From a virus, in IMG/VR virus record IMGVR_UViG_3300027851_000017, positions 9,303 through 73,302 of that record: 64,000 bases of DNA. One strand, given 5' to 3'. Position 1 is the first letter of the stretch. Each line of letters starts with the position of its first letter. The notes under the pieces are model-generated. The model worked only from the letters and a program-made list of their open reading frames with translations, made no database searches and had not been told where the DNA came from. The position numbers and the translations under genes are program-made. This document shows, in pieces, positions 1-38,210 of the stretch.

Positions 1-510
1 ACCTCTGCTGAAGCTGAAGCAAAGACCGCGCTAACAGTGGCCGAACAGCAGCTAGCTGCACTTGAAATATCTAATAACTACTTAGGTAGTATTTCTTCGG
101 GTATTTCGCAGATTGTAGCTTCTATCGGGCTATCGGGAGCACTTGGTACTATCCTACCTACGCAGGCAGCTGCTAACGGCGGGTACATGCAAGGTCTTAC
201 ACTAGTCGGTGAAAAGGGTGCGGAAGTCGTAGACTTTAAGAGTCCTGGCAGAGTTTACTCAGCTAACCAGACCTCTGAGCTGTTTAGAAATATTCCGCAA
301 GGTAATAACAACGCAGCGTTGGTACGTGAAGTTTCAGCACTTCGACAAGAAGTTGCAGGACTGCGTAATGACCAGCACAAGCAGACTGGCGATCTCATCA
401 TGAGTAACTATGACGCTAACAGACAGAATTCCGCAGAAATAACTACAGCAATTACAGACGCAAACGACGATGCAACTTGGTCAGAGAAAAACCTAGTTGC
501 TATGAAATGA
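1..510 (+). CDS. 3' end of a large tail gene (tape-measure-like) entering from upstream of the window; last 157+ codons
   Basis: Frame is open from nt 1 with no stop. Position just upstream of tail tip genes. Ala/Gln-rich coiled-coil-like segment. Followed by a strong rho-independent terminator. Confidence 0.4.
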   Translation, partial: TSAEAEAKTALTVAEQQLAALEISNNYLGSISSGISQIVASIGLSGALGTILPTQAAANGGYMQGLTLVGEKGAEVVDFKSPGRVYSANQTSELFRNIPQGNNNAALVREVSALRQEVAGLRNDQHKQTGDLIMSNYDANRQNSAEITTAITDANDDATWSEKNLVAMK

Positions 511-538
511 GATAGAGCCCTTCGGGGCTCTATTTTCA
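511..538 (+). terminator. rho-independent terminator
   Basis: 9-bp perfect stem atagagccc/gggctctat with ttcg loop, then T-run. Confidence 0.7.
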
Positions 539-576
539 ATAGTTAGTGTACTTACTATTGAAAATAGACTTAAGGA

Positions 577-2121
577 GTGGTAATGAATAATTATAACGAG
601 TGGCTAAAGCGCCAAGATGTGGTGCGAGTACTTATCGCTCAAGTACAGGTAAGTATTGCTGGCGTACTGCAAACTAAGTACCTATCAACCGGCCCTGTTA
701 CGGTAGATAGCGTAGAATACCTACCGATCATAAGGGGCGGAATCGACATTTCATCTAGTATATCCCTAGAGTACACTAGTAGTATTTCGTTCGGAGATCT
801 AGATATTATCAACTCGCATAGAGGGTATGACGAATGGTTTAACTATAACTGGACTAATAAGTCGTGTAAGCTATACTATGGCGAAGTCCCGGCTAGTCCT
901 ACTAACCAAAGTCTTACTGCCGACTACGAGTTGGTATTCGATGGAATAGTCGAGGACATTGACGCCAAATCAGCCAATGTGTTAAGCCTTAAGCTTCGTG
1001 ATAAGCTAGAGAAGCTAAACTACCCGGTTACTGAAGCTTTATTAGGTAACTACTTTCATGGTGCAGTACTTAGCGATAGCGACCCTTCGTATACTAACCA
1101 ATCTCGTGCGGTAGTTAAGCCCTTAGTATTTGGTGAAGTTAATAACATCACGCCGCTATTGACCGACCCTACACAGTTAGAGTACATGGTTTCGGCAGTA
1201 GCGGTGGAGAACATTATTGAAGTGCTCGATAACGGCGTACCTGTAGCGTTTCACACAGTAAAGAAAGCTACAGAAATCGGTGACATCCCTCCAGGCAGCT
1301 TCAGACTAGATTTTCAGCCAGTTGGTACTATAACTGCGTCCGTACAGGGTGTAGCTAAAACAATAGACTTTACTAATGCTACCCATTCCGATAGTTACAC
1401 TAATACTATTGCAAATGCTATTGGCACTATACTAAAGTTCTACGGAAAACCTTTAGGGTATACTGAGATAGATGTACCTAGTTTCACTACTTTAGGTGCT
1501 GAGCCTATTGGTGTGTACCTCACTGACCGTACTAACTCGTTCGTACTGTGCTCCGAACTAGCAAAGAGTGCAAACTGCGTGCTAGCAGTTACTAGACAAG
1601 GCAAGGTAAAGTTAGTAGAGCTAGATGTACCTGTTACCGCTACTTACGCAGTACACGATGGCAACACTATCCTCAATAGTGTAAAGTTGGTAAGAAAGTC
1701 AGATGTACTTGCAGGCATTAAGTTAGGATACGCACGCAATTGGACTGTAATGGCTAATGTAGTGACAGGTATTCCTGAAGAACATAAAGATCTGCTTAGT
1801 ACAGAATACCTGGAAATTTCGGTAAAAGATGATGTCGCTAAAGAGGCCTACAGTGTTACGACCGAGCCAGCACTGGTTCCTACGTACCTAATAAGCACTG
1901 CAGATGCTACATCCAACGCAAATTCCCGCTTGACTTTACGTAGCACATCGCGTAAAATAGTCGGTATGCAATGCACTTCCGAACTTCTGCACTTAGAGGT
2001 AGGGTCACCTATCCTAGTTAATATCAACAGATTCGGAATACCTACAAATACTGTTGGATTGGTACTGGCTACGAGGCTAGACTGGTTGAACGGCAAGATT
2101 GACCTAGAAATATTGGTATAA
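577..2121 (+). CDS. tail structural protein (514 aa), distal-tail/baseplate-like by position
   Basis: Long ORF with SD-like GGAG upstream, directly preceding the giant fibre gene. No recognisable catalytic motifs. Confidence 0.4.
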   Translation: MVMNNYNEWLKRQDVVRVLIAQVQVSIAGVLQTKYLSTGPVTVDSVEYLPIIRGGIDISSSISLEYTSSISFGDLDIINSHRGYDEWFNYNWTNKSCKLYYGEVPASPTNQSLTADYELVFDGIVEDIDAKSANVLSLKLRDKLEKLNYPVTEALLGNYFHGAVLSDSDPSYTNQSRAVVKPLVFGEVNNITPLLTDPTQLEYMVSAVAVENIIEVLDNGVPVAFHTVKKATEIGDIPPGSFRLDFQPVGTITASVQGVAKTIDFTNATHSDSYTNTIANAIGTILKFYGKPLGYTEIDVPSFTTLGAEPIGVYLTDRTNSFVLCSELAKSANCVLAVTRQGKVKLVELDVPVTATYAVHDGNTILNSVKLVRKSDVLAGIKLGYARNWTVMANVVTGIPEEHKDLLSTEYLEISVKDDVAKEAYSVTTEPALVPTYLISTADATSNANSRLTLRSTSRKIVGMQCTSELLHLEVGSPILVNINRFGIPTNTVGLVLATRLDWLNGKIDLEILV

Positions 2122-2122
2122 T

Positions 2123-5100
2123 ATGGCCCAATTACTAAATTACAGAAATGCACTATTACAGGCCGCAACGCAGCGTGTAATCGGCTCCGCCGTAGTTGTA
2201 ACTAGCGGCGCGGCCACCTCGCTAAACGTACCTAAGGGGTCTAACACTACGATCCCTGGTACTATCACTCTTACGGCTTCTGTAACTAAGTTCGTATCGC
2301 CAGCCTACGCGTGGTACTACAAGAAATATGAAGACGCAGCGTTCACGTCAATTGCCGGACAGACACTACATACATTAGACGTTGTAGGTGATTCGGCATT
2401 TCTAACAGCTAACCTTACCACTAGTGCTGTACAGTACAAAGTGATTGTAACTGAAACTGGCGCCGCATATCCGAGCACTGCTGAGTACACAGTTACTATC
2501 CCTATTTTGCGTGACGGTACAGATAGTACGTTAGGGTTCTTAACTAATGACTCTGTAGCCGTACCGGCAAACGAGGTAGGTGTAGTGCCTGCCGATGCGT
2601 ACAGCGCATTAACCTCTACACTAGTAATTTACCGTGGTACTGTTGACGACTCCGCAAACTGGAGTGCCGCTATTAGTGCGTACACACCAGGCATTACAGC
2701 TGCGCTAGTAAACGGTAAGACAATATCCATAACCAATATCACCTCCGAGTTTAACTCTGGTTATGTGGAAATAGAAGCTACAAGACAGAATTACGCTAAT
2801 ATCGTAAAGCGCTTAAGTATAGCTAAAGTTGCTACTGGTATTTCACCTACTATCTACTCTATTGAGCCGAACGTATACGCGATCGCAAAGAATCCAGACG
2901 GTACGTACAACCCTGCAGCGGTAACATTCTCTAGCTATAGCGTTACTGGTAATACGAAGACTGCCTACCTGGGCCTTATAAACATCTACCACAATGACTC
3001 GGCAACTCCAGCGTATGTCTCGCAAGCCCCAGAGGCAGTAAAGACGTATACTATACCAATCGGGATTAGTACGCTGCGTGTAGAGCTCCTATCGAATGGT
3101 TCTCCTTCCGCAGTACTAGACTCGCAGACTATACCTATTGCAGAAGCCGGATCTAGCTCAGTAGACATTATAGTTACTAACTCTACATTCGTAATCCCTG
3201 CCAACGCTAATAATGATGTATTAAGCTACATCAACTCCGGCACTAATATTACAGTACGTGAAGGTACCAACCCTTTAGTATACAGAAATAGCCTATTAGG
3301 GCAAGTGTCTAGCTTTACGGTAGGAACAGCTACTCTTAGCACCGGGTCTGGTATTACAGTTGGCTCCGTTAGCGCCGGCAGCGATGGTAGTACGGTAGCA
3401 ACTATTTTGCAGCATTCTAACATGCTGCAAGCAATAGACAGTATTATCATTACATACCCTGTTACATACGTACGCGCAAACGGTTCACAGGCTACAGAAT
3501 ACGTAACTCAAAGTATTACTAAGGCCGTTCCCGGGTACCGCGGGTCTAGAAACGTGTACGGATCCGACCCTAGCTACACGGCTACATATGATTATGACGG
3601 AGTAGGTGTTACTGCTCCAGGTGCTGAAAGTTACGCTAAGAAGGCCGATGATCTAATATACGCAGCTACGCTTAATAGCTCGCCTAGAACTCCTATTGAA
3701 GGTGATACAGTAACCTTCAGTAATAACTCTAACTACGTATACACTATTACGTATAAGGCAAACACTAGTGCTTGGGAGCCCCCTGGTACAGTAATTGACG
3801 GCAGCTTGTTAGTTACTGGTAGTATTACTGCTGATAAGTTAGATACCCGTGAACTTACAATACGCGATGCATCTGGTAATATAGTGGTGCAAGCTGGTGC
3901 ACCTATAGACTGGACTAAACTAGGTACTCCTAGCGCGAACCTTACGGGTCTAGGGTACACTGGTGCGTTAGACGCAACACGTAATGTATTCAGAGGAGCA
4001 TGGTCTACTTCTACCGCATACGTTGCTGGCGACAGTATAACATATAATGGCTCTACATGGGCGGCAGTACTTGCACATACTTCTGTAAACGGTACTAATA
4101 ACCCGCCAACACTGCCTACAATAAGTAATACTTGGTGGACGCTTGTCGCTGCCAAGGGCGATAGCGGGGTAAATGGCACGCGCACGGCCATTCTGGAGAT
4201 GTACCAATGGGCGGCGAGCGCGCCAACCACGTTCCCCTCTGGCAGTTCGACCTACACATGGGCAACTGGCCAGTTCACTGCCCCGGCAACCGTCAACGGC
4301 TGGAGCCTAACGCCGCCCGCGCCCGTGGCTGGGCAAACATTGTGGGTGTGCCGAACCATCTTCGCTGACTCCTTGACATCTGCAACCAGTGCTATCGCAT
4401 GGAGCGCAGCCACGGCAGTTGCCGCTGGCGGAAGCGGGGCTAGCGGTGTCAACGGCACGCGCACGGCCGTGCTTGAGCTATACCGCTGGTCGGCCTCCAC
4501 GCCGACTACGTTTCCTTCTGGAAGCTCGACCTACACATGGACAACGGGCGCCTTTACGCCCCCCGCAACACTTAACAGTTGGGGCCTGACGCCAGGTGCG
4601 GCAGTTGCGGGCCAGACCCTTTGGGGATGTTCCGTCACCTATGCGGACACCGAAACATCAGCCACCAGCGCAGTGACATGGTCAGCAAGTACCGCTTATG
4701 CAGTTGGAGCAGCTGGGTCTAACGGTGTTGATGGATCGGCCGGTGCGAACGCTATTTCTGCGATCTTGTCCAACGAAGCTCACGTCTTCCCAGCTGCTAG
4801 CGACGGCACAGTTGCGACCTACGCGGGATCTGGCACTGAGGTGCGGGTGTTTGAGGGCGCGACCGCGCTGACCTATGACGGGGTTGGCACGTCAAACGGC
4901 ACATGGACGGTGTCCTCGGCGGTCACGAACATCGTGCGTGGCACCCTGACCGACTCAGGGACGTTTTTGACTGTAGGTGCCCACTCAGGTGTGGCGGCAG
5001 GCACTGACACATCAGTGATTGTCTACACGATCACCGGAAAGACGGCGGTCGGCACACCCTTCACGATCACAAAGAACCAGACCTTCAGCAAATCGAAGGC

Positions 5101-8100
5101 CGGGGCGGCTGGGGCAACTGGCGCGGCAGGCTCAAACGCGACAGCCTATTGGCTTGTCACCAGCGCACCCGCTGTGCAGAAGTCGGTGGGCGGTGTCTAC
5201 ACGCCGTCCGTTGTCACGTACTCGTCCATGTCTGCCACGGGGACCGCCGCCCCCGCTGCATATGCTGGCCGGTTCATCATCGCAACCTCGACGGACGGCA
5301 CTACCTACACAGACCAGTACACCTCCGCAGCAAACGAGTCATCCAAGGCATTCACGATCCCTGCGAACATCAAGACGGTGCGAGTGCGCGCCTACCTGGC
5401 AGGCGGCACGACCACTCTGCTTGATGAGCTGATCACCGCTGTGGTTTCTGATGGAGCCACGGGTGCGACTGGTGCGACGGGACGCTACGGTTTGAATTTT
5501 GCAGAAGCGAAGTCCATGTTCACTGACCCGACGTTTCAGGTCGGGAGCAACTCAGTAGGCTTGTACAACAACGCGGGCGGCGGGACGGTGACGCATACGC
5601 GGGAAGCTAGGCAAACAGACTCTCCATTTACTGACTCTGGTTTCAACATGAAGATTAGCAATACTGGGGCTGCCAGCCCTGGTATTGGCGGTTTCATCCA
5701 CTCGTTTAACGGCAGAGCGAGCGCAGTATTTGTTCAGCGAATTGTCGCAAAGATTCCTGTCGGCTACACGATTGAGCAAGCCACCAACGCAATCGGAGAT
5801 GGGGCCACTAACGAGTGGATCACTCCGCAGGCTGGTACTGGCAAGTTTGAGGAATACATCCTAGTTCGTCGTTGCGGCGCAACCGGCACGTTCAGCGGCT
5901 CAGGGCATATCTACTTGAACGGTGCTGCAGGCTCTGCTGGCGCTCCAGTCAACTGGTACGTTGCGTATGCTGCGACTTACGACTTCACAGCCGTGGGCTT
6001 TGGAGCCGTCACGGCTGTGTTGTCGAATGAGACACACACCATTCCAACTGACAGTGCAGGCAACAACGGCAACTTCACAGGTAGTGCCACAACGGTGACG
6101 ATCTACAACGGCACGACAGACGACTCGGCCAATTGGACTGTCGCGGCAACCCCGATTGCTGGAGTGACTGGCTCTCTGGTCGGTAAGACCTACACGGTCA
6201 CTGCGATGACTGTGGACACAGGTTATGTGGACCTGGTTGCATCTCGTTCCGGATACGCAAGCGTGACCAAGCGGTTCACGCTTGCTAAGTCAAAGGCAGG
6301 TGCAACAGGTGCTTCCGGCGCTACAGGTGCTGCTGGTGCTCAAGGGCCCTCAGTCGTTGTGACACCAGATCGCGTGACCACCTTCACAGCTACAGACGGT
6401 ACTCTTGACGCATCGCAGGCAAACATCGTCTTCACAGCCGCTGTCTCTGGCGTTGCAAGCCCTACCTATGTGTGGTCCTTCTCAGGCTTCCAGACAGCAC
6501 CCACCAACTCAGGTACGTCAACTCAGACGATTACTGCCGCCCAGTTCGGAACAGCGAAGTCGGCCATCGTGACCTGCACAGTCAGCGGCACGTATACAGA
6601 CAAGGTGACCATTGTTCGCCTTGAGAAAAGTACGGCTGCCGCTGGGGCTACTGTAGGGGCTACATGGGGCACGAATATCTCAGGGCAGCCTGCTAACAGT
6701 ATCATCTATAACAGTTCCGTAACACTGGCTGCAGACGGCACTCTTAACGGCGCTGGTGGCGGGCAGGTCACACTCCCTGGCATGGGACTGTCCAGTTATA
6801 GAGTTGTTGCGGCTGGCTACACCGCCACAAACAAACCCACCGGCGCAGGCCTCTACGACGCCAAGACTGGTGGGCTTCTCGTCGGTCTTGCGTCCATGTA
6901 TCGGGTGGTGAAGATTCACAGGACTACCGGTGTGCTGACCAACGTTGGTGGTTGGAATGTGTTGGCTGGCGGTACAAACTCTGCGGATATGGCGGCTGCA
7001 CTGAATGCCATCGGCAATGACCATATCGTCGTTGTATTCACGAACGATGAGCCAGCAGGCAATCGCCTTACTGGCGGGTTGCCCGCTGCAATGTACCGCT
7101 GTGGAGCAAGTCGTGGAGTGTTCGGCTCGTCGTCATTCCAGGGGAGAAGTGCCTACGCCCTGATCGGCATTGCCGGGTGCGGGGAAGGCAACGGGGCTGA
7201 GTTCTACCAGGGCGAAATCTACGGGGACGCGAACGCATGGATTGACGCTTCGTTTTCCATCATTGGCGGAAACCTTGTCGGTGTCTCGGGAAGCTATACA
7301 CCGAGAACATTGACTGACTACGGCTACACAGGGGCATTAGACGCCAATAATACCTACGTCGATGCAAACGGTGCAATTCAGGGCGTAAGCAGCGGAAGCG
7401 GTACCGCAGTGAATAACGCATTCTTAGATACGTTGACATTCACTACGACAAACGTCACTGTTTCAGGTAACACTTTCAAGAAGACGGGCGGCGTGCAGGG
7501 TCAGTGGGACGCACAAGCCTACACAAAGGAGAGTTACACGCTTGGAGCCTACGCATCGTTTAGTCCGGATCAGTCTACTGGAAATAGTATGGCAGGGTTG
7601 AACACTGACCCAGCTACGGATGCGAGCTACTCGTCCATTGACTATGCGGTGTACTTTGCCAACGGCACAGTCACGATCTATGAGTCGAATGTATCCCGTG
7701 GGAACTTTGGAACTTACGTTGCCGGGGACATTTTTGGCGTGACCTACGATGGTGTGAACGTCCGATACTATAAGAATGGTGGACTGCTACGAACAGTCGC
7801 AGCAACCATTTCTGCACCACTGTACTTTGACTCGTCCATTTACACTCTGAATAACTCCATCTCCAAGGTGAAGTTTGGGCCTATGTCGTCGAGCTCGTGG
7901 AGCAGTATCGGAGGGACTGGAAAACCTGCTGATAATGCCACCGTAGGTGCTCCAACAGGGACTTATGTAGGCGGTGTGCTCGCAGAAACAGTTGCAGGGA
8001 AAGCCGATGGTGCCTTACAAAAAGCAGGAGACGCCATTATCGGGCCAGTTACCTTCGCCACCAATGGGGGGATCCTCGCTGCTACGGATGCAGATAACGG

Positions 8101-8290
8101 CGTCTTTATGGGGCCGAATGGTTTAGTAGGTAAAAAGGCAGGAGTGAATACATTCGTTCTTGATGCTCAAGGACAACTTGGGATAGCCTCAGCCACTTCA
8201 GGTGCGCGTATGGAGATTAAGAATAACGTGATTAAGGTTTTCGATGCAAGTGGTGTGCTTCGCGTGCAGATTGGGGACTTGACAGTATGA
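2123..8290 (+). CDS. giant tail fibre / tail tip protein (2055 aa) with collagen-like G-X-X runs and internal tandem repeat
   Basis: 2055-aa ORF. Runs such as KAGAAGATGAAGS, DGATGATGATGRYG, KAGATGASGATGAAGAQG. 93-aa tandem duplication. Strong GC shift inside the gene. Confidence 0.55.
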   Translation: MAQLLNYRNALLQAATQRVIGSAVVVTSGAATSLNVPKGSNTTIPGTITLTASVTKFVSPAYAWYYKKYEDAAFTSIAGQTLHTLDVVGDSAFLTANLTTSAVQYKVIVTETGAAYPSTAEYTVTIPILRDGTDSTLGFLTNDSVAVPANEVGVVPADAYSALTSTLVIYRGTVDDSANWSAAISAYTPGITAALVNGKTISITNITSEFNSGYVEIEATRQNYANIVKRLSIAKVATGISPTIYSIEPNVYAIAKNPDGTYNPAAVTFSSYSVTGNTKTAYLGLINIYHNDSATPAYVSQAPEAVKTYTIPIGISTLRVELLSNGSPSAVLDSQTIPIAEAGSSSVDIIVTNSTFVIPANANNDVLSYINSGTNITVREGTNPLVYRNSLLGQVSSFTVGTATLSTGSGITVGSVSAGSDGSTVATILQHSNMLQAIDSIIITYPVTYVRANGSQATEYVTQSITKAVPGYRGSRNVYGSDPSYTATYDYDGVGVTAPGAESYAKKADDLIYAATLNSSPRTPIEGDTVTFSNNSNYVYTITYKANTSAWEPPGTVIDGSLLVTGSITADKLDTRELTIRDASGNIVVQAGAPIDWTKLGTPSANLTGLGYTGALDATRNVFRGAWSTSTAYVAGDSITYNGSTWAAVLAHTSVNGTNNPPTLPTISNTWWTLVAAKGDSGVNGTRTAILEMYQWAASAPTTFPSGSSTYTWATGQFTAPATVNGWSLTPPAPVAGQTLWVCRTIFADSLTSATSAIAWSAATAVAAGGSGASGVNGTRTAVLELYRWSASTPTTFPSGSSTYTWTTGAFTPPATLNSWGLTPGAAVAGQTLWGCSVTYADTETSATSAVTWSASTAYAVGAAGSNGVDGSAGANAISAILSNEAHVFPAASDGTVATYAGSGTEVRVFEGATALTYDGVGTSNGTWTVSSAVTNIVRGTLTDSGTFLTVGAHSGVAAGTDTSVIVYTITGKTAVGTPFTITKNQTFSKSKAGAAGATGAAGSNATAYWLVTSAPAVQKSVGGVYTPSVVTYSSMSATGTAAPAAYAGRFIIATSTDGTTYTDQYTSAANESSKAFTIPANIKTVRVRAYLAGGTTTLLDELITAVVSDGATGATGATGRYGLNFAEAKSMFTDPTFQVGSNSVGLYNNAGGGTVTHTREARQTDSPFTDSGFNMKISNTGAASPGIGGFIHSFNGRASAVFVQRIVAKIPVGYTIEQATNAIGDGATNEWITPQAGTGKFEEYILVRRCGATGTFSGSGHIYLNGAAGSAGAPVNWYVAYAATYDFTAVGFGAVTAVLSNETHTIPTDSAGNNGNFTGSATTVTIYNGTTDDSANWTVAATPIAGVTGSLVGKTYTVTAMTVDTGYVDLVASRSGYASVTKRFTLAKSKAGATGASGATGAAGAQGPSVVVTPDRVTTFTATDGTLDASQANIVFTAAVSGVASPTYVWSFSGFQTAPTNSGTSTQTITAAQFGTAKSAIVTCTVSGTYTDKVTIVRLEKSTAAAGATVGATWGTNISGQPANSIIYNSSVTLAADGTLNGAGGGQVTLPGMGLSSYRVVAAGYTATNKPTGAGLYDAKTGGLLVGLASMYRVVKIHRTTGVLTNVGGWNVLAGGTNSADMAAALNAIGNDHIVVVFTNDEPAGNRLTGGLPAAMYRCGASRGVFGSSSFQGRSAYALIGIAGCGEGNGAEFYQGEIYGDANAWIDASFSIIGGNLVGVSGSYTPRTLTDYGYTGALDANNTYVDANGAIQGVSSGSGTAVNNAFLDTLTFTTTNVTVSGNTFKKTGGVQGQWDAQAYTKESYTLGAYASFSPDQSTGNSMAGLNTDPATDASYSSIDYAVYFANGTVTIYESNVSRGNFGTYVAGDIFGVTYDGVNVRYYKNGGLLRTVAATISAPLYFDSSIYTLNNSISKVKFGPMSSSSWSSIGGTGKPADNATVGAPTGTYVGGVLAETVAGKADGALQKAGDAIIGPVTFATNGGILAATDADNGVFMGPNGLVGKKAGVNTFVLDAQGQLGIASATSGARMEIKNNVIKVFDASGVLRVQIGDLTV
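4167..4725 (+). repeat. in-frame tandem duplication (2 x about 279 nt = 93 aa) inside the giant fibre gene
   Basis: Copy 1 starts GVNGTRTAILEMYQWAASAPTTFPSGSSTYTWATGQFTAPATVNGWSLTP. Copy 2 starts GVNGTRTAVLELYRWSASTPTTFPSGSSTYTWTTGAFTPPATLNSWGLTP. Confidence 0.7.
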
Positions 8291-8559
8291 GTTTTGGTAT
8301 ACAGACACGGAATAACTTAGGTACTCTATTGATTAGTCCAGATAGTAGAATAACTAGGGCAGTGTCCAGATTTAATATAGCCTTGACTATACGGGGGACT
8401 GTCTCAATAGTCGTCCCAGGTTATACTGATGACGGCACCTGGGCGTTTTTTACGGATGACTATGGTGCGGTGAGAAAATCAGTAAGTGGCAATACATTTA
8501 CATTTACAGAACTTTTAGGTAAAGACACCGCACTTGTTTTAATAGTTTTTAGGTATTAA
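8287..8559 (+). CDS. hypothetical protein (90 aa)
   Basis: ORF start overlaps the stop of the fibre gene (translational coupling pattern). Confidence 0.35.
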   Translation: MSFGIQTRNNLGTLLISPDSRITRAVSRFNIALTIRGTVSIVVPGYTDDGTWAFFTDDYGAVRKSVSGNTFTFTELLGKDTALVLIVFRY

Positions 8560-8561
8560 TT

Positions 8562-9269
8562 ATGCAAGGATTGACAGTATTAAATAGCTCAGGATTTAAA
8601 CAAATTGATCAAGAGTTTACTAATCATGTTTTAATAGCACGAGGCACAGCTGTACTTCCAGCCGCCTATCTGCAGAATGGTAATCATGTAGTGTCTGCAA
8701 CAGTAATACCGTTTCCTGCCGTATCTGAAATGCCTATGGTATTTGTAAGAACGCCAGATGGGGGCAGAGTAGTATTCGGTACATCTGGCCCCATCGCGTA
8801 TAGCGAGCCAGCTATAAACAACGTAAAATGTTTTTGTCCGGATACTGCTTCAGCAGTTACTATAGAGTACTTGGTGTATTCCGCAGATACTAGTATTATT
8901 ACCCCTGAGGGTACCCACGGTATTATAGTAAATAAGTCGGATGGGTCGAAATGTTTTGACAGTAGAATGACGTACCCAAACATAGTAATGTCCAGTACAT
9001 ACGTAATGAGTACGACTAATCCGGCGTTTGGCACTAATCTAATTTTTAATGTACCTGGTAACGGTAACCTATATTTTTTGCTCAATGCTACGGGGTACTT
9101 GGTTAATAGTTTTGGTGGCGGGTCTAACAGCAGATACTATAACTCTCAGCAAACGGTAAATAATAGCACGTATGAAATCAGTTGGACAAGATTAGTCGGG
9201 TCCTTCCCTGGAAGTATAGATAGAACTGGTAATTTATGCAGAGTCATGGCTATTAGAGTTGATTATTAA
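8562..9269 (+). CDS. hypothetical tail/virion protein (235 aa)
   Basis: Co-oriented and tightly packed with the structural genes. Confidence 0.4.
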   Translation: MQGLTVLNSSGFKQIDQEFTNHVLIARGTAVLPAAYLQNGNHVVSATVIPFPAVSEMPMVFVRTPDGGRVVFGTSGPIAYSEPAINNVKCFCPDTASAVTIEYLVYSADTSIITPEGTHGIIVNKSDGSKCFDSRMTYPNIVMSSTYVMSTTNPAFGTNLIFNVPGNGNLYFLLNATGYLVNSFGGGSNSRYYNSQQTVNNSTYEISWTRLVGSFPGSIDRTGNLCRVMAIRVDY

Positions 9270-9284
9270 GATGGTAAAGAATTT

Positions 9285-9899: not shown

Positions 9900-9907
9900 G
9901 GAGTCAA

Positions 9908-10630: not shown

Positions 10631-10884
10631 TGAAGTTCTTCGTACTTCAGCTAGCTATCTCAATAGACCAGCTGTTTAATGTATTATTAGGCGGATACGC
10701 TGATGAAACGCTAAGCTCCAGGGCTTGGCGAGCATACTACGATAAGAAGCCTTTTGGGCTGTTCTTTAAGCCGCTAATAGATGGGCTATTCTTTTTCGAC
10801 AAAGACCACTGCTTCAATTCTTTCCTAAGCGAAAGGTTAGATAGACAGCAGCCGCCTGAAAACAGGAGTAAATACCAGCCTTAG
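10630..10884 (+). CDS. hypothetical protein (84 aa)
   Basis: ATG overlaps the previous stop (ATAATG). Followed by a terminator. Confidence 0.3.
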   Translation: MKFFVLQLAISIDQLFNVLLGGYADETLSSRAWRAYYDKKPFGLFFKPLIDGLFFFDKDHCFNSFLSERLDRQQPPENRSKYQP

Positions 10885-12762: not shown

Positions 12763-13139
12763 TTTTTGTAGTTACTGAAATCAGTACTGGTAAGGAAGTG
12801 TACCGATATACCTCCGACGTGGCTATTGAGTGGAAAGACATGGAGTTTGCTACTCATACTCATTTACCAGTTGTAGAGCCCGTAGATGCCGTACAGCCTG
12901 TTATTACTGAGAGAAAGATTAGTAAGTTAGAGTATATGGAGCTATTTACAGATAATGAGATGGTATCCATTTTCTCCGCAGCTAAGGCTAGTCCATTAGT
13001 AGAGATTTGGTTGGAGAAGTTTAGACTGTCGGAGTTCATAGACCTAGCTGACCCTAGAAACGCTGATGGCTTACAAGCCTTAGAATCTGCCGGTATTTTA
13101 GGTCAAGGCAGAGCTGCGGAGATATTAAATGGCAACTAA
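12759..13139 (+). CDS. hypothetical protein (126 aa)
   Basis: ATG overlaps the previous stop. Confidence 0.35.
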   Translation: MIFVVTEISTGKEVYRYTSDVAIEWKDMEFATHTHLPVVEPVDAVQPVITERKISKLEYMELFTDNEMVSIFSAAKASPLVEIWLEKFRLSEFIDLADPRNADGLQALESAGILGQGRAAEILNGN

Positions 13140-15357
13140 ATACTGCGAACCCAACTTGTACGCAGAGACGTGCGAGTTCGTCGGGAGCGTCAACGCAAAC
13201 GGCAACACCCTAACAGTCACATCAGTCACCGCTGGACGACTTGGCATTGGTGCACGCATTTTAGGGCTGGAAGACACCTACGCCAACGGCGCATTCATCA
13301 CTGCGCTTGGCACTGGCACAGGCGGTGTCGGCACCTACGCACTGCAAGTCAACTCCATCATCGCAGCAACAGGCAACCGCAACCTGACTGCCTCTCAGGT
13401 GCCTCCAATGGATGTACCCATCTGGGGTGTAGCCCAGGACGGTGATGGTCTTGCAAAAGGCGCAGCTACTCCTGCAATGGCGAGCGTTGTTTTCGGGGCG
13501 GGCGCAGCATCTGGCTCCTTCTCCGTCCTCGGCGTCAGCCTATCCCCGACGCTGACCAGCGACGTCGATGCCAACGCCAACAACCTCGCCGCTCTGATCA
13601 ACGCCTCGACTTCGGTAATTTCCTTCCCGTCTAGCTTCACAGTGAAGGGGGCGCTGCGCAACCATGTGTACGCGAGAGGTCCAGCCAACGGCGCTCCCAC
13701 CGGCACGTGCGAGATCATGACGCGACAGGGGTCTGCGCTGCACAACGGGCAGGTGGCGGCCACCCACACAGTGAACACTGTCTCGTCCGACCCTATCACG
13801 TTCTCGGGGGGTACTTCCGGCGCATGGGGCTGGATTTACCTGTGGTCAAAAATGTGGCCTACAAAGATCGCCGAGATGACATACGGCATCTGGGGCACGA
13901 TTGGTACGTACTGCGGCTCCGCGCAGGCTGGGGACGTGGTCAAGATCCGCGCAGACCGTCAGGTCTGGGGATGGACCTACACAGGCGACGGCTTCGCTCA
14001 AGGCACCTACATGTCCGGTGCTGGGACAGACCTGGACCCCGTCATCTACGAGGTTGACGATGGTACTGAGTGGGCATCACCGGCAGAGCCCGTCCTGGAG
14101 CTTGTCATGGTGGGCTCAGGGAATACGCGGTGGACTCCGCTACAGCCCGGGGCTGGTCGAACGTATCTGAAAGCCAACCGCTACAGCGACGATAAGTATG
14201 GGTGCGTGTTCCGCACAGCCGTGAACTACCCAACATCTGCACCGCACGCTAGCGCACCCCCAGTGAGTCCTCCCGTCTTGTTCCCGCTGGTCATGGAGGG
14301 GGTGCACATCAAGGTGGCTACTGGGGTTCTGAGTATTCCGGGTACCGGCTCGGCGGCGCACTACGGCGTAACCGCCGTCGCTCCGGCCACCTATCTGCGA
14401 TCTCGGCTTGAAACACACCGGAACACCAGTCTGGTGGGCGGTGGGGCCTCCGACGGTAACGGCGCGTCATTCATCGCAAGGTTCGAGGACACAATTATTG
14501 ATGCTGGTACAGACTCTTCTTCGCCCGATGCGAGCGGAGTGTTCTCTTGGACAGGTTTCGGTAGCACAGGTGTGGTCGATATCGACTTCGAGAACTGCCG
14601 TTTCCTCAACTTCGTGATCGGTAGTCGGTTCTACGCCGCGCAGTCCATGACTGACAAGCGGGTCCGCGTTCACCTGCGGGACTGCGACATGGGCGGCATC
14701 ACCGTACTGGCCCCCGTTTGGGGTGCGTCTACGCGAGGCATCCGGTTTAACGGGGTTCGCGGGGTATCTGCCGGGATCTTATCGACCAAGTCCTACGACG
14801 CGCAGGATTGGTTTGTGGACACCCACTACGGTTACGCTGCCTGGACCTCCACACGCAGCTTCCCGACCCTGAACGCAAAGCTGGCTGATGGCGTTACCCC
14901 GTGGTCAATCCAGGTGATTCCTCCGCAGGTGGCAGCAAACACGACCAAGCTGCGAGGGTTTGAGCTTCCCCGCTTCTCGAAGCGCAACACGCTCGGCGAC
15001 GGTGTCCGCACGCTGCGCGTCGAGCTAGGTGTTGAGCAGAGCCTGACGGTGGACAAGGGCGACATTGTTGTGCAGGTCGAGTACACCGACACCACTGGGC
15101 GCAAGCGTGTCGATAGCTCCTACAGCTATACACACGAGCCACTGCTGGACAGCGACGCGGCCTGGACGAACGCGGTGGGCAACCAGTTCAGCTACTCGGA
15201 CTCCGGCAACATTTACTTCAACAAGAAGTACTTGACGCTGACAACGAGCCAGCCCGTGGCTAACAACAGCAGCATCGGAGTCATCGTCTCTGTGCGCTTT
15301 AGCGTAGCGGACACCACGAAGATGCTGTTCATTGACCCCGAAGTGCAGGTGGTGTGA
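13129..15357 (+). CDS. GC-rich tail fibre / receptor-binding-like protein (742 aa)
   Basis: The whole ORF is about 60% GC against about 43% flanks. Gly/Thr/Ser-rich beta-rich composition typical of fibres and tailspikes. Confidence 0.45.
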   Translation: MATKYCEPNLYAETCEFVGSVNANGNTLTVTSVTAGRLGIGARILGLEDTYANGAFITALGTGTGGVGTYALQVNSIIAATGNRNLTASQVPPMDVPIWGVAQDGDGLAKGAATPAMASVVFGAGAASGSFSVLGVSLSPTLTSDVDANANNLAALINASTSVISFPSSFTVKGALRNHVYARGPANGAPTGTCEIMTRQGSALHNGQVAATHTVNTVSSDPITFSGGTSGAWGWIYLWSKMWPTKIAEMTYGIWGTIGTYCGSAQAGDVVKIRADRQVWGWTYTGDGFAQGTYMSGAGTDLDPVIYEVDDGTEWASPAEPVLELVMVGSGNTRWTPLQPGAGRTYLKANRYSDDKYGCVFRTAVNYPTSAPHASAPPVSPPVLFPLVMEGVHIKVATGVLSIPGTGSAAHYGVTAVAPATYLRSRLETHRNTSLVGGGASDGNGASFIARFEDTIIDAGTDSSSPDASGVFSWTGFGSTGVVDIDFENCRFLNFVIGSRFYAAQSMTDKRVRVHLRDCDMGGITVLAPVWGASTRGIRFNGVRGVSAGILSTKSYDAQDWFVDTHYGYAAWTSTRSFPTLNAKLADGVTPWSIQVIPPQVAANTTKLRGFELPRFSKRNTLGDGVRTLRVELGVEQSLTVDKGDIVVQVEYTDTTGRKRVDSSYSYTHEPLLDSDAAWTNAVGNQFSYSDSGNIYFNKKYLTLTTSQPVANNSSIGVIVSVRFSVADTTKMLFIDPEVQVV

Positions 15358-15360
15358 TCT

Positions 15361-15762
15361 ATGGGCCTCTATTCATCCACACATAACAGCACCCTGGGTG
15401 TGCCTGACTACTCTTACGTCACGGAGCGCGGCAGGTTCTACCCTGTCGTGAACGAGATGTACGAATTGCAGTCGCTGCCCACCGACCCTATTGGTGTTTT
15501 CGAGATAACATTGACCAACCTTGTTGTCGGCTCAGCTGTACATATCGAGGCGGTTGACGGCACCGTGTTGGTCAATATGGTGGCTGACGCACCAACCGAA
15601 GTGATCACGCTGCAGAGCTACGCCGCAGGGTCTGCGCTCAACAACCTGCACGTCAAGGTGCGCAAGGGCAGCGGGTCTCCGTTCTACCAGCCTTTTGAAA
15701 CATACACCACATCTGTAGTAGGCTCCCAGTCTATCTATGTGTCCCAGATTCCAGAGGAATAA
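15361..15762 (+). CDS. hypothetical protein (133 aa), N-terminal part GC-rich
   Basis: ORF directly after the 742-aa gene. Confidence 0.35.
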   Translation: MGLYSSTHNSTLGVPDYSYVTERGRFYPVVNEMYELQSLPTDPIGVFEITLTNLVVGSAVHIEAVDGTVLVNMVADAPTEVITLQSYAAGSALNNLHVKVRKGSGSPFYQPFETYTTSVVGSQSIYVSQIPEE

Positions 15763-15765: not shown

Positions 15766-17208
15766 ATGGCTATTAATCCATCACAATTCACTATCGACAC
15801 TAATGGCAATATACGCCAAGTGTCGGCTTTCGTACCTGGAACTAACACTAGGTACTCTACACTAGAGCTACACGCTTGGCTACAAGATTTAGCAGATAAC
15901 CCATCACAATCAGGTGATGATAGCATTAGCATTCTGTCAGGCAACCCATCGGAGCTAGCCGGTAAACGTAATGCTAGCCGTCCTATGGCGGTAACTCTAC
16001 TTCCTAACGTTAATATTGATGACTCAACAAGTCAATGGTTTAAGTTTGGGTCTATTGAGCAAGGTGCTGGGCAGGTATTATATACAGGCCTTAAAGTACT
16101 AGGTACATTAGTAGATAGCTCGCCAATTTATATCACGCAAAGTGGTACTAAGCTAGCAAAGTATTGGTCTGATACTGATACTGCTAACTTTCAGGTATTG
16201 GTGAAAGCTAAAACTGCTGGAGCTTTAATTGACTCCGGCAACATTACTGTCTACTCTAGAAAATACGGTCAAACATATTCACATTTTGATGTTAACCTAG
16301 CTTCCGGTGGCGAGCAAGCAGCAGCTCTTGGTACTAGCTTAGATAACAATATTGCACTTACACCTGCACAAGCCGAGGCTGTGTGGAACACCCTTACTAT
16401 AGCTATAGGCGATACCTCTCAGGACTTGGGCGGAGGTCAAGGCTCTAAGCTGCATAAAGGCACTATTACATTAAATGGTACTACATCGTTAGCTCAAGCG
16501 TATCAGGCCCTAATGTGGGCTACATCTGAAGATAGCACAGCGACCATCAACGGCATGCCAGGTTGGCGCTACCGCGCTCTTACAGGCACCTACCCAGAGA
16601 ACGTAGCAGCTCCGTTTGGTTCATTTGCCGGCGGTAAGTGGTTCGTAGCTCAAGGTTGGTGGCTTGCCGGTGTAATGCCAGGAGACTCGAAGAACTATCA
16701 GCTTACTAGCCACGATGGTACAGTGCAGACTCCACCTACAACAGTTTCTGTAACGGTTACTGGAGTAGAGGCCGGAGACTACGTATTAGCAGTACGTGAT
16801 AATGGTGGTAGTGGTATGAACTTTACAGAGTATGTAGTTACTGCGACTGCAGGAGCTTCTACTGTAACTGTTGCAGGGCTGAAGGTAGATACTCCCTCTG
16901 TTGGCGTAATTAGAATTAACTCCGATAGGTACACATATACCGGTCGTAGCGGTGAGACACTAACCGGACTATCTCCTGTAATTAAAGCTGGTGGCTACGC
17001 TGCTGTACCTGCCTTTGTACCGCTAATTGACGATGTGGCTACTTCTAGCTCTATAGCTAGTGGGGTATTCCAGTACACTACATCGTTTGCTTGCAGATAC
17101 AAGATTCGTAGAGGTACTAGCGGATCGTCTATTGTACCTTTTGAGTCTATTATGCAGGTTACGGAAACCGGTGGTTCAGGTACTGCTGTACGTAACGCAG
17201 ACGAGTAA
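15766..17208 (+). CDS. structural protein (480 aa)
   Basis: Long ORF with AGGAAT SD-like upstream. Confidence 0.4.
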   Translation: MAINPSQFTIDTNGNIRQVSAFVPGTNTRYSTLELHAWLQDLADNPSQSGDDSISILSGNPSELAGKRNASRPMAVTLLPNVNIDDSTSQWFKFGSIEQGAGQVLYTGLKVLGTLVDSSPIYITQSGTKLAKYWSDTDTANFQVLVKAKTAGALIDSGNITVYSRKYGQTYSHFDVNLASGGEQAAALGTSLDNNIALTPAQAEAVWNTLTIAIGDTSQDLGGGQGSKLHKGTITLNGTTSLAQAYQALMWATSEDSTATINGMPGWRYRALTGTYPENVAAPFGSFAGGKWFVAQGWWLAGVMPGDSKNYQLTSHDGTVQTPPTTVSVTVTGVEAGDYVLAVRDNGGSGMNFTEYVVTATAGASTVTVAGLKVDTPSVGVIRINSDRYTYTGRSGETLTGLSPVIKAGGYAAVPAFVPLIDDVATSSSIASGVFQYTTSFACRYKIRRGTSGSSIVPFESIMQVTETGGSGTAVRNADE

Positions 17209-37457: not shown

Positions 37458-38210
37458 TTAGGCGTCAACGGCAGCCTTGCCGTCAGCCTTTTGACGCTTC
37501 TGAAGGCCGTCATAATCTGCAACCTTGATGCCACGACGGGTCAACAGGGTACGAATACCGCGCTCAGTCTTGCCAGCAGATGTTGCAATTTCGGCAACAG
37601 TCATAGTGGCAATCTTGTCGCCAAGAGCATCCACAGCATCAATATGCTCCTTAGCAGTAGATGCCTTCTGAGCAGGAATCTTGCTGATCTGCTCACCACG
37701 AGTCAGGCTAAGAGCCTTACCACGTGCGCTAGCCACGGTCTTGCCGAGCACTTCAGCAATTTCTTCGATGAAGGCACCAGCGTTAGCCATCGAAATAAAC
37801 GTAGCTTCCTGTTCGGGAGTATAAGTACGGGCAGCTTCAACCTTCTCGGTAGGGCGAACCAGGCTTGTCAGTTCTAGAGCCAGCAGCTTACCTTGGATTT
37901 GCTTCGAGTTGAACTTACCTTCAGCAAAGTTCTCAGCGATTTCCTTGTACGTAAACGCGTTAGCATTTTCATTCACAAAGTCAGCCAGGTCGTTACCTTC
38001 AGCTTCTGTAAAAGCAGGAACCTTTTCCTTAGCCAGCGAAGCGACTTCGCGATCCAGTTGACGCAGCTTAGCAGCAACAGAACGAGCGCTAACACCAAGA
38101 GCTTCGGCAGCAGCGTTTACGCTAGCTGCGCTAACAGGTGAGGCATCACCAACAGTAGCCAGTAGGGTAGCAACGCTTTCGTCGGTCCACTTTTTTGCTT
38201 TTTCAGTCAT
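37458..38210 (-). CDS. GC-rich Ala-rich protein (250 aa), possible DNA-binding protein
   Basis: ORF is about 57% GC. HTH-like segments. Confidence 0.35.
   Translation of the reverse strand: MTEKAKKWTDESVATLLATVGDASPVSAASVNAAAEALGVSARSVAAKLRQLDREVASLAKEKVPAFTEAEGNDLADFVNENANAFTYKEIAENFAEGKFNSKQIQGKLLALELTSLVRPTEKVEAARTYTPEQEATFISMANAGAFIEEIAEVLGKTVASARGKALSLTRGEQISKIPAQKASTAKEHIDAVDALGDKIATMTVAEIATSAGKTERGIRTLLTRRGIKVADYDGLQKRQKADGKAAVDA

What the first reader, a model, noticed from the sequence alone, without database searches (positions are those of the whole stretch)
4150..8000. High-GC (about 60%) segment grafted into the giant tail-fibre gene; the same composition fills the 742-aa fibre gene (13129..15357) and an early gene (37458..38210)
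The 5' 2 kb of the 2055-aa gene is about 45% GC. From about nt 4150 composition switches abruptly to about 60% GC (for example ggcacgcgcacggccattctggagatgtaccaatgggcggcgagcgcgcc), with third-position G/C bias, and returns to AT-rich near the 3' end. ORF 13129..15357 and ORF 37458..38210 have the same composition. Their GC richness also yields long spurious ORFs in every frame. This pattern indicates recent acquisition of receptor-binding or host-range modules from a high-GC donor by domain shuffling.
Basis: seen in the sequence. Interest (0 to 1): 0.6.

Follow-up and report, generated by a model that had tools for sequence, protein, structure and literature searches.

The report
Imported GC-rich phage tail-fibre modules
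Two stretches of the tail genes of a T5-like phage (about 44% GC) were swapped in from phages with much GC-richer genomes; this is a clean but ordinary example of phages trading host-recognition parts.

Summary
The composition jump is real. Third-codon-position GC (GC3) in the 2055-aa tail gene rises from 0.38 to 0.64 at about nt 4133 and falls back at about nt 7916. The background is 0.41±0.06. The third gene cited, 37458..38210, is native (GC3 0.44).

A sibling phage contig (L006) is 86-98% identical in nucleotides on both sides of each region. Inside them, third-position identity falls to the level expected by chance. In the fibre L006 uses native codons (GC3 0.3-0.4); its 732-aa and 132-aa genes are only mildly GC-enriched (GC3 0.49). 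Its fibre is also about 840 aa shorter.

The 742-aa gene is 85% nt identical to a gene on a 62.5% GC contig (L015), where it matches its neighbours in composition. Fibre segments are about 85% identical to phages of 53-55% GC. One segment is 96-99% identical to sibling L005.

Several joints lie at collagen-like Gly-Ala-Thr linkers. The imported parts fold as lectin-like domains (PANDER/ILEI, SPRY/ConA). The 742-aa protein folds as a beta-helix tailspike, not a fibre.

Verdict: horizontal exchange of receptor-binding modules, a known phenomenon with unusually clear breakpoints.

The parts
37..510 (+). C-terminal end of the tape-measure gene (the ORF runs off the window start); this is context that places the fibre gene in the tail module
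   Evidence: 36% aa identity to the end of the 2208-aa PhageMin_Tail protein of L009. L006 has the order TMP(2127 aa)-512-1217.
577..2121 (+). 514-aa tail protein of native composition (backbone)
   Evidence: GC3 0.40; 94% aa identity to L006; phrog_8917.
2123..8290 (+). 2055-aa tail-tip/central-fibre gene, the mosaic as a whole
   Evidence: One uninterrupted ORF. PHROG 'tail protein' hits. It lies two genes after the tape measure.
2123..4132 (+). Native N-terminal part of the fibre (aa 1-670), ending with a CBM_5_12 domain (aa 626-669, nt 3998-4129)
   Evidence: GC3 0.386, z = -0.5. 78-100% aa identity to L005 and L006, with third-position identity 0.54-0.92. CBM_5_12 E 2e-7 and PDB 1ed7 chitinase ChBD.
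4133..7916 (+). GC-rich graft in the fibre gene (aa ~671-1931): an allele replacement of aa ~690-1000 plus inserted modules
   Evidence: GC3 change points. Against L006, third-position identity drops to 0.22-0.36 and GC3 is 0.6-0.74 versus 0.22-0.44. The L005 and L006 fibres are 1220 and 1217 aa. nt 4739-6660 is 85.6% identical to L007 (53% GC phage) and nt 5471-7346 is 85.5% identical to L008 (55% GC).
4143..4671 (+). Tandem duplicate of a ~93-101-aa domain (aa 679-779 and 772-872) inside the graft
   Evidence: 68% aa identity; 71% nt identity between 4143-4392 and 4419-4671.
4373..4972 (+). Segment shared almost identically with sibling L005
   Evidence: 96-99% nt identity (third positions 0.90-0.98), against 77-93% in the shared backbone of the same gene.
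5096..5137 (+). Collagen-like Gly-Ala-Thr linker (KAGAAGATGAAGSN, aa 992-1005) at a mosaic joint
   Evidence: Linker scan. The L005 match ends at aa 996 and the P0060 98% match begins at aa 1001.
5447..5491 (+). Collagen-like linker (SDGATGATGATGRYG, aa 1109-1123) at a mosaic joint
   Evidence: Linker scan. The P0059, P0065 and P0092 matches begin at aa 1114-1124.
5507..5992 (+). Inserted domain aa 1129-1290 (PHROG 5911 'tail protein'; weak discoidin/F5_F8_type_C signal)
   Evidence: phrog_5911 E 1e-44. F5_F8_type_C E 0.005, below cut-off.
6293..6352 (+). Collagen-like linker (KAGATGASGATGAAGAQGPS, aa 1391-1410) at a mosaic joint
   Evidence: Linker scan. Alignment to the short L005 and L006 fibres resumes at aa 1402 and 1410.
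6791..7294 (+). Inserted PANDER/ILEI-like domain (aa ~1557-1724)
7454..7879 (+). Inserted SPRY/concanavalin-A-like jellyroll domain (aa ~1778-1919)
7917..8290 (+). Native C-terminal end of the fibre (aa ~1932-2055)
   Evidence: GC3 0.415, z = 0.0 for nt 7937-8290. 80-90% aa identity to L006 and 88.5% nt identity to L005 from nt 7937 and 7994 respectively.
13129..15357 (+). 742-aa beta-helix, tailspike-like protein; first gene of the swapped cassette
15361..15762 (+). 133-aa gene, second gene of the swapped cassette; function unknown
   Evidence: GC3 0.672. 58% aa identity to L006. Nucleotide identity recovers to 0.80 at 15696-15755 and 0.95 from 15756. It always follows the 742-aa homologue.
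15766..17208 (+). 480-aa conserved neighbour of native composition; marks the right edge of the cassette
   Evidence: GC3 0.34. Its first 127 aa are 100% identical to L006. 75% aa identity to L001 and 67% to L016. No Pfam, PHROG or PDB match.

Best explanation
The window is a T5-like (Demerecviridae-like) lytic phage of about 44% GC with 26 tRNA genes.

Two places in its tail region carry DNA that arrived by recombination from phages with GC-richer genomes. This DNA has not yet drifted to the resident composition.

(1) In the 2055-aa tail-tip/central-fibre gene, the virion-proximal part (aa 1-670) and the last ~120 aa are native. Between them, the ancestral distal domains were replaced by a GC-rich allele (aa ~690-1000). 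Further bead-like modules were also inserted: Ig/FN3-like repeats, a PHROG-5911 domain, a PANDER/ILEI-like domain and an SPRY/ConA-like lectin domain. This lengthened the fibre by about 840 aa relative to its siblings.

Joints tend to sit at short collagen-like Gly-Ala-Thr linkers, or directly after a domain such as CBM_5_12. Paralogous domain repeats provide further homology. Exchange is therefore in frame and domain by domain.

(2) A two-gene cassette, a 742-aa beta-helix tailspike-like protein plus a 133-aa partner, was replaced precisely at gene boundaries by an allele from a ~62% GC phage lineage.

Both events change the surface-glycan-binding parts of the virion and so, by inference, host range.

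Shown: the composition shift, the breakpoints, the foreign relatives, the predicted folds, and that the homologues' composition follows their own genomes.

Inferred: the direction of transfer, the recombination mechanism at the linkers, glycan binding, and the effect on host range.
For: Composition: GC3 z-scores of 2.4-5.2 and change points at nt 4133, 7916, 13161 and 15693.

Sibling L006 has the same gene order. Its flanking proteins are 88-100% identical. blastn matches are 1-4632, 7937-13148 and 15472-16147 at 83-87%.

Inside the fibre graft, aa identity falls to 56-80% and third-position identity to 0.22-0.36. There L006 has GC3 0.22-0.44.

At the cassette, 60-nt identity is 0.87-1.00 up to nt 13119 and 0.25-0.73 from nt 13120 to 15695. 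It recovers to 0.80 at nt 15696-15755 and 0.95 from nt 15756.

L005 shares the same low-to-high GC junction from an independent assembly. It is 96-99% identical over nt 4373-4970, more than in the backbone.

Donor-like lineages:
- L015 is 62.5% GC with neighbouring genes at GC3 0.72-0.82. It carries the gene at GC3 0.76, 85% nt identical from exactly nt 13128, while its upstream gene is only 35% aa identical.
- L007 (53% GC, native GC3 0.56-0.69) and L008 (55% GC) match nt 4739-6660 and nt 5471-7346 at about 85.5%.

Family survey: in 49 loci, gene GC3 follows flank GC3 (slope 0.73, r 0.68). The window's excess of +0.33 is 3.2 SD out.

A weak amelioration signal is present: at synonymous sites, 88 are GC in L015 and AT in the window, against 63 the other way.

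Linkers coincide with the joints.

The converse case exists. In the 63% GC phage L009, the distal fibre end and the DUF4376 gene are GC-poor (GC3 0.41-0.52 against about 0.8) and resemble the window's native sequences at 78-81% nt.
Against: No sampled relative is the actual donor. The best foreign matches are about 85% nt identical, with third positions 69% identical for L015. Timing and direction therefore rest on composition.

L015 is only 3.2 kb, so its 'native 62% GC' context is about 1 kb of flank.

L006's own cassette allele is also mildly GC-enriched (GC3 0.49 against 0.35). This locus may be a repeated import site, or recombination itself may raise GC.

A general trend of a 'module pool of intermediate GC' is not significant across the 49 loci (Spearman -0.16, p 0.26). 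Flank GC3 estimates for high-GC loci in that survey are noisy.

Glycan binding, trimerisation, enzymatic activity and any host-range effect are untested. The host is unknown.

Only 3 of about 6 joints coincide with clear collagen-like linkers.
Confidence: 0.85

Rival explanations
1. Intrinsic constraint: these fibre and spike domains are rich in Gly, Ala, Thr and Ser, and the protein sequence (or selection for particular codons in late genes) forces high GC wherever the family occurs.
For: GC2 is raised (0.62-0.77) in nt 4073-4972, reflecting Ala/Gly/Thr-rich sequence. GC2 is similarly high (0.59-0.68) in the native-codon allele of L006.
Against: GC3 is raised as well. L006 encodes homologous domains with GC3 0.24-0.41. 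The L002 homologue of the 742-aa gene has GC3 0.41 in a 44% GC phage. Across 49 loci, gene GC3 follows the genome. Other late genes, and the 5' third of the same gene, are native.
Confidence: 0.03
2. In-situ enrichment: these loci are recombination hot spots, and GC-biased gene conversion or repair raised GC locally. The composition would then say nothing about a donor.
For: Every divergent cassette seen in low-GC siblings is GC-richer than its backbone. Examples are L006 732/132 aa at GC3 0.49, L005 genes 4491-6054 at GC3 0.51-0.57, the L005 799-aa gene at 0.52, and L016 at 0.59 against about 0.21.
Against: Near-identical modules sit in phages whose whole sampled context has that composition (L015, L007, L008). 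In high-GC phages the exchanged parts are GC-poorer than the backbone (L009; L001 by called genes), the opposite of a GC-biased process. The boundaries are step-like and coincide with identity breakpoints.
Confidence: 0.07
3. Assembly chimera: the metagenomic contig wrongly joins reads from a low-GC and a high-GC phage that share conserved tail-gene stretches.
For: The window comes from a metagenome assembly (protein P0001 is known only from JGI contigs). Mosaic tail genes are classic places for mis-joins.
Against: The 2055-codon frame runs unbroken through both junctions. The cassette edges fall exactly on gene boundaries, with the usual overlapping start and stop. An independent assembly from another sample (L005) contains the same low-to-high GC junction contiguously (blastn 3116-5115). 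The exact 742-aa protein is recorded on two contigs. L016 shows the same kind of GC-rich gene in another low-GC backbone, in two independent assemblies.
Confidence: 0.03
4. Targeted hypervariation (a diversity-generating retroelement or similar) acting on the receptor-binding genes created the divergent, oddly composed stretches.
For: These are receptor-binding genes with lectin-like domains, which are typical DGR targets (general knowledge).
Against: Neither GC-rich region has a template-like repeat anywhere in the 64-kb window. The only repeat is the 71% tandem domain duplicate. Divergence spans kilobases and whole domains, not adenine-specific sites. Foreign relatives at 85-99% identity explain the sequence directly.
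Confidence: 0.01

Closest known systems
Mosaic tail-fibre and host-recognition modules exchanged between unrelated phages. Classic cases are P2/Mu/T-even/lambda fibres (own knowledge: Haggard-Ljungquist et al. 1992; Sandmeier 1994). A recent case is the Alteromonas phages A5/V22/P24 (PMC10579305).
   Same: Receptor-binding genes, sometimes with a small partner gene, are shared between phages whose other genes are unrelated. Exchange is attributed to recombination during co-infection or with prophages. Here L015, L007, L008, L009 and L001 share modules with the window but little else.
   Different: Here the exchange crosses a large compositional gap (44% against 53-68% GC). The grafts are therefore visible from base composition alone, and breakpoints can be placed to within tens of bases. 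No isolate, host or adsorption data exist.
Streptococcus thermophilus phage antireceptor. Variable region VR2 and the domains are separated by collagen-like repeats (Duplessis & Moineau 2001, as cited in PMC5601072).
   Same: A long tail protein is built of domains separated by collagen-like Gly-X-Y repeats. Host-range-determining segments are swapped between them. In the window, linkers at aa 992-1005, 1109-1123 and 1391-1410 coincide with similarity joints.
   Different: No sequence relationship was found. The linkers here are short (4-6 triplets). Not all joints have one: the main left joint follows a CBM_5_12 domain and a single KGDSGVNG motif.
Right-handed beta-helix tailspikes and depolymerases (P22, HK620, CBA120 TSPs, Klebsiella and Acinetobacter capsule depolymerases).
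   Different: There is no Pfam, PHROG-function or PDB sequence match. No catalytic residues were identified. The conserved N-terminal ~320 aa and the C-terminal beta-sandwich are family-specific. It sits far from the other tail genes, next to conserved 133-, 480- and 152-aa proteins of unknown role.
T5-like phages (Demerecviridae). Host range is set by exchangeable distal tail proteins: pb5, L-shaped fibres pb1, and LtfA/LtfB of DT57C (own knowledge).
   Same: The genome type matches: D5-like regulator, SbcCD, NAD-dependent ligase, a large tRNA cluster, and a DNA polymerase 50% identical to T5-like Vibrio and Enterobacter phages. Variation among siblings is concentrated in distal tail genes.
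   Different: No sequence similarity to T5 pb1, pb4 or pb5 structures in the PDB. No nucleotide-level relative exists among 50,697 deposited phages. The fibre is far longer and is built from different domains.

Membership tests
Horizontally acquired (recombinant) tail-gene module | Base and codon composition discontinuous with the resident genome | tested here: met
   GC3 0.55-0.71 against 0.414 +/- 0.057; step-like change points at nt 4133, 7916, 13161 and 15693.
Horizontally acquired (recombinant) tail-gene module | Sharp drop of identity to a close sibling genome, coinciding with the composition boundaries | tested here: met
   Window against L006: flanks are 87-100% nt identical and the inside is 25-73%; third-position identity is 0.22-0.36 within the fibre graft.
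Horizontally acquired (recombinant) tail-gene module | Closer relatives of the module in otherwise unrelated genomes | tested here: met
   L015: 85% nt in the gene, but the neighbouring gene is 35% aa. L007 and L008: about 85.5% nt. L005: 96-99% over nt 4373-4970.
Horizontally acquired (recombinant) tail-gene module | Module composition matches that of a candidate donor genome | tested here: met
   L015 gene GC3 0.76 against neighbours 0.72-0.82. L007 backbone GC3 0.56-0.69. Caveat: the L015 context is short.
   In 49 loci, gene GC3 tracks flank GC3 (r 0.68). The window excess is +0.33, or 3.2 SD.
Beta-helix tailspike / depolymerase | Right-handed parallel beta-helix fold | tested here: met
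Beta-helix tailspike / depolymerase | Homotrimeric assembly attached to the virion through an N-terminal adaptor domain | not testable with these tools
   Only a monomer was modelled. The N-terminal ~320 aa are the most conserved part of the family, which is compatible with an anchor but does not prove it.
Beta-helix tailspike / depolymerase | Polysaccharide-degrading active site | not tested
   No sequence match to any characterised enzyme family. Catalytic residues were not examined.
Collagen-like-linker-mediated domain shuffling (S. thermophilus phage antireceptor type) | Gly-X-Y linkers flanking exchangeable domains, with joints at the linkers | tested here: inconclusive
   Five linkers were found. 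Three coincide with similarity joints (aa 996/1001, 1114-1124, 1402-1410). The joints at aa ~1545, ~1743 and ~1940 have no clear linker.
Diversity-generating retroelement target | Template repeat / variable repeat pair | tested here: not met
   No second copy of either GC-rich region in the window; only a 71% tandem domain duplicate.
Demerecviridae-like (T5-like) phage (context) | T5-type replication and early gene set plus a tRNA cluster | tested here: met
   D5-like regulator, SbcC/SbcD, DnaB-like helicase, NAD ligase and Pol I. 26 tRNAs. Polymerase 50% aa identical to T5-like phages.
Demerecviridae-like (T5-like) phage (context) | Homology of the fibre to the T5 tail-tip proteins pb1, pb4 or pb5 | tested here: not met
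   phmmer against all PDB chains finds only the CBM5/12 domain. tblastn hits in phages are limited to shared Ig-like domains.

The most novel reading that the evidence does not exclude
A clade of low-GC, tRNA-rich, T5-like environmental phages repeatedly imports receptor-binding modules from phages of 53-68% GC. Three independent low-GC backbones carry GC-rich alleles of the same tailspike gene: the window, L006 and L016. This would mean that these phages infect GC-rich hosts and use resident prophages or co-infecting host-adapted phages as a library of adsorption modules. Hints of such hosts come from module relatives in Chromobacterium genomes and in contigs binned to Paucibacter, Hydrogenophaga and Methylibium. 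The composition of the graft, rather than of the phage, would then predict the host.
Probability: 0.3. Interest if true: 0.5.

Novelty: new member of a known kind. Interest (0 to 1): 0.3.

Why it matters
It gives an unusually well-resolved natural example of how a large lytic phage rebuilds its adsorption apparatus. One event is an in-frame, domain-wise graft plus an insertion of about 840 aa in the central fibre. The other is a precise two-gene tailspike cassette swap. In both, breakpoints are located to tens of bases and donor-like lineages are identified.

For annotation, it flags which parts of these otherwise unannotated proteins are the exchangeable, probably glycan-binding host-range determinants. 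This is useful for host prediction and for engineering chimeric fibres at natural joints.

The grafts come from GC-richer phages. This gives a testable hint that the host is a GC-rich bacterium despite the phage's 44% GC.

Tried and rejected
- Megablast of nt 1-20000 against 50,697 deposited phages: no match.
- tblastn of the 742-aa protein against the same set: no match.
- Pfam, NCBIfam, PHROGs and PDB sequence searches of the 742-, 133- and 480-aa proteins gave nothing useful. The function of the 133- and 480-aa proteins stays unknown.
- Scan of GTDB species genomes for the 742-aa family found only 5 MAG contigs: Saccharibacteria, Nitrososphaerota, a Gammaproteobacterium, Hydrogenophaga and Methylibium. 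These are probably binned phage contigs, so no reliable host was obtained.
- Viral-contig scan with the fibre N-terminus found one distant locus only.
- Idea that modules form a common pool of intermediate GC, which predicts a negative relation between excess GC3 and backbone GC3: not significant in 49 loci (Spearman -0.16, p 0.26). It is kept only as individual cases (L009, L001).
- DGR, assembly chimera, amino-acid-driven GC and GC-biased conversion were considered and judged unlikely (see rivals).
- The claim that early gene 37458..38210 shares the composition was rejected on GC3.

Full report
**What the window is.** The window carries late and tail genes on the + strand (nt 1-19.9 kb) and replication and nucleotide-metabolism genes on the - strand. 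The latter include RNR, SbcC/SbcD, helicases, Pol I, DnaB-like helicase, a D5-like regulator, NAD-dependent ligase and NAMPT. It also has 26 tRNA genes at 49.3-61.8 kb. The DNA polymerase is 50% identical to those of T5-like Vibrio and Enterobacter phages. No deposited phage matches at the nucleotide level. It is therefore an uncultured, distant T5-like (Demerecviridae-like) phage of about 44% GC.

**Check of the observation.**
- GC in 1-kb windows is 0.43-0.46 up to nt 4000, 0.60/0.58/0.57/0.53 for nt 4001-8000, and 0.58-0.61 for nt 13001-15000.
- The shift is present at third codon positions. In the 2055-aa gene (2123..8290), GC3 is 0.31-0.45 before nt ~4070 and 0.54-0.74 up to nt ~7400. It is about 0.51-0.57 up to nt ~8100 and 0.42 at the end.
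- Likelihood change points are nt 4133 and 7916.
- Against 48 other ORFs (GC3 0.414 +/- 0.057), the fibre sub-segments score z = 4.2, 3.5, 3.0 and 2.4. The 742-aa gene scores 5.2.
- The 'early gene' 37458..38210 has GC 0.51 but GC3 0.44 (z = 0.4). Its GC comes from first positions, and it is a conserved D5-like regulator.
- Off-frame open stretches are indeed enriched in the GC-rich parts but are modest, at most 150 codons.

**Comparison with sibling phages: the fibre gene.** Protein searches found close relatives of the fibre, and their contigs were fetched.
- L006 (45.6% GC) has the same gene order as the window: TMP-512-1217-90-235-204-240-...-126-732-132-480.
- Flanking proteins are 88-100% identical to the window's.
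- Along the fibre, window and L006 are 78-100% identical in aa, with third-position identity 0.54-0.92, up to aa ~690.
- From aa ~700 to ~1940, aa identity is 56-80% and third-position identity 0.22-0.36, which is essentially saturated. GC3 there is 0.6-0.74 in the window and 0.22-0.44 in L006.
- From aa 1942 identity returns to 80-90%.
- The same kinds of domains therefore exist in a native-codon version. The GC-rich version is an alternative allele, not a property of the protein.
- L006 and L005 fibres are 1217 and 1220 aa. The window has in addition roughly aa 1000-1400 and 1509-1938.

**An independent assembly with the same junction.** L005 comes from another sample. It shows the same low-to-high GC step at the same codon and aligns contiguously across it (window 3116-5115). 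Over nt 4373-4970 it is 96-99% identical to the window, more than in the shared backbone (77-93%). This argues against an assembly chimera. It also shows that this segment moved, or was acquired from a common source, after the backbones diverged.

**Relatives of the inserted fibre modules.**
- nt 4739-6660 is 85.6% identical to L007, a phage contig of 53% GC whose other genes have GC3 0.56-0.69.
- nt 5471-7346 is 85.5% identical to L008 (55% GC).
- Hundreds of other tail proteins share single domains at 50-90% aa identity in different orders. Many carry Phage_Tail_Tip or lambda-J-like domains.
- The converse case also occurs. In L009, a 63% GC phage with the same tail-gene order, the distal ~430 aa of the fibre and the following DUF4376 gene are GC-poor (GC3 0.41-0.52 against ~0.8). 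They resemble the window's native sequences at 78-81% nt.

**Anatomy of the joints.**
- The left change point (nt 4133) directly follows a CBM_5_12 domain (aa 626-669).
- Short collagen-like Gly-Ala-Thr linkers lie at aa 764-779, 992-1005, 1109-1123 and 1391-1410.
- Three of these coincide with similarity joints. The L005 match ends at aa 996 and the P0060 98% match begins at aa 1001. P0059, P0065 and P0092 begin at aa 1114-1124. Alignment to the short fibres resumes at aa 1402-1410.
- Paralogous domains occur in both native and foreign parts: aa 146-235 with 1298-1389, aa 243-333 with 1007-1101, and a tandem pair aa 679-779 with 772-872.
- These features provide in-frame homology for domain-wise recombination. 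That step is inferred. It resembles the collagen-like repeats separating domains of the S. thermophilus phage antireceptor (PMC5601072, citing Duplessis & Moineau 2001).

**What the inserted fibre modules are.** An AlphaFold2 model of aa 1509-1945 has mean pLDDT 79.5, with both domains above 90. It shows two domains:

Relatives of this part occur in tail-fibre-like proteins of Chromobacterium genomes and in a Paucibacter MAG. Together with CBM_5_12 this fits glycan-binding, receptor-recognition modules. Binding itself is inferred.

**The second region is a two-gene cassette.**
- Against L006, 60-nt identity is 0.87-1.00 up to nt 13119 and 0.25-0.73 from nt 13120 to 15695.
- It then recovers to 0.80 at nt 15696-15755 and 0.95 from nt 15756.
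- The edges fall at the start of the 742-aa gene, which overlaps the end of the upstream gene, and at the stop of the 133-aa gene.
- The proteins are 39.5% and 58% identical, while neighbours are 92% and 100%.

**Candidate donor lineage for the cassette.** The 742-aa family has about 45 full-length members and always sits in the order ~135 aa - ~740 aa - ~133 aa - ~480 aa.
- The nearest foreign relative is L015: 90% aa and 85% nt identity, with homology starting at window nt 13128. It lies on a 62.5% GC contig whose other genes have GC3 0.72-0.82, and its upstream gene is only 35% aa identical to the window's. There the gene (GC3 0.76) is compositionally at home.
- Synonymous differences lean towards AT in the window (88 against 63), a weak amelioration signal.
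- L016 is a phage with backbone GC3 ~0.21 that carries a 55%-identical allele with GC3 0.59.
- L001 is a 68% GC contig with two integrases. It carries a 57%-identical allele that is GC-poorer than its called neighbours (0.77 against ~0.9).

I collected 49 loci with near-full-length homologues from metagenome and viral collections. I compared gene GC3 with the GC3 of flanking ORFs.
- Gene GC3 follows the genome (slope 0.73, r 0.68).
- The differences have mean -0.01 and SD 0.11.
- The window (+0.33) and L016 (+0.35) are the two extremes.
- Homologues therefore do not share the window's composition across the family, and the test does not refute the foreign-origin reading.
- A general 'pool of intermediate GC' trend is not significant (p 0.26). 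Flank estimates in very GC-rich loci are noisy, so I do not claim it.

**Rivals.**
- Amino-acid-driven GC explains the raised GC2 but not GC3, nor the native-codon alleles in L006 and L002.
- GC-biased conversion at a hot spot would fit the fact that all divergent cassettes in low-GC siblings are GC-richer. It does not fit the GC-poor grafts in GC-rich phages, nor the existence of compositionally native relatives.
- An assembly chimera is contradicted by the unbroken frame, the gene-boundary edges and the independent L005 and L016/L017 assemblies.
- A DGR is contradicted by the lack of any template repeat.

**Comparison with what is known, and verdict.** Exchange of tail-fibre and host-recognition modules between unrelated phages is long established. 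Recent work shows whole modules, including fibre plus partner protein, shared across phage families (PMC10579305). The present case is a new example of that kind in an uncultured T5-like lineage. Three things make it noteworthy:
- The compositional gap between recipient and donors makes the grafts visible by eye.
- The breakpoints are precise.
- Allele replacement, domain insertion and cassette swap coexist in one tail region.

It is not a new mechanism. The most novel reading still allowed is that these low-GC, tRNA-rich phages prey on GC-rich bacteria and harvest adsorption modules from host-adapted phages. This is plausible but unproven, because no host could be assigned.

Noticed in passing
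window 49292-61778 (- strand): Cluster of 26 tRNA genes, most with U at the wobble position of the anticodon. This is typical of T5-like phages. It could compensate for a codon-usage mismatch with a GC-richer host.
   Followed up: no
window 9285-9899 (esp. 9580-9890): The C-terminal DUF4376 domain of the 204-aa tail protein is 79-81% nt identical to genes in L007 (53% GC) and L009 (63% GC). In L009 that gene is GC-poor relative to its genome. This is a further mobile module.
   Followed up: partly
window 15766-17208: The 480-aa protein of unknown function is 75% aa identical to its counterpart on a 68% GC contig with integrases (L001), although GC3 is 0.34 against 0.94. It is 67% identical to that of L016. 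There is no Pfam, PHROG or PDB match, and it always follows the tailspike-like gene and the 133-aa gene.
   Followed up: partly
window 8287-9899 vs L005 4491-6054: Sibling L005 differs from the window in the three genes after the fibre (31%, 33% and 60% aa identity). In L005 these genes are GC-enriched (GC3 0.51-0.57), and L005 has a 799-aa gene where the window has other genes. The siblings therefore have several swap hot spots.
   Followed up: partly
window 40661-42310 and 39040-39993 (- strand): Nicotinamide phosphoribosyltransferase (phrog_448, E 2e-161) lies next to an NAD-dependent DNA ligase. The NAMPT gene has mildly raised GC3 (0.52, z = 1.8).
   Followed up: no
L016 1778-4006 (and L017): A very AT-biased phage backbone (GC3 ~0.21) carries a 742-aa homologue with GC3 0.59. 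The adjacent 132-aa gene is native (0.17), so the tailspike-like gene can also be swapped alone.
   Followed up: partly
window 18173-18868 and 19191-19916: An endolysin (phrog_181, E 2e-72) and a PhoH-like protein close the + strand late region, just before the divergent replication genes.
   Followed up: no
window 11020-11415 and 11756-12379: Two small late genes are noticeably less similar to L006 (65% and 75% aa) than their neighbours (88-94%). The first is 96% identical to L005. This indicates further small-scale mosaicism among siblings.
   Followed up: no
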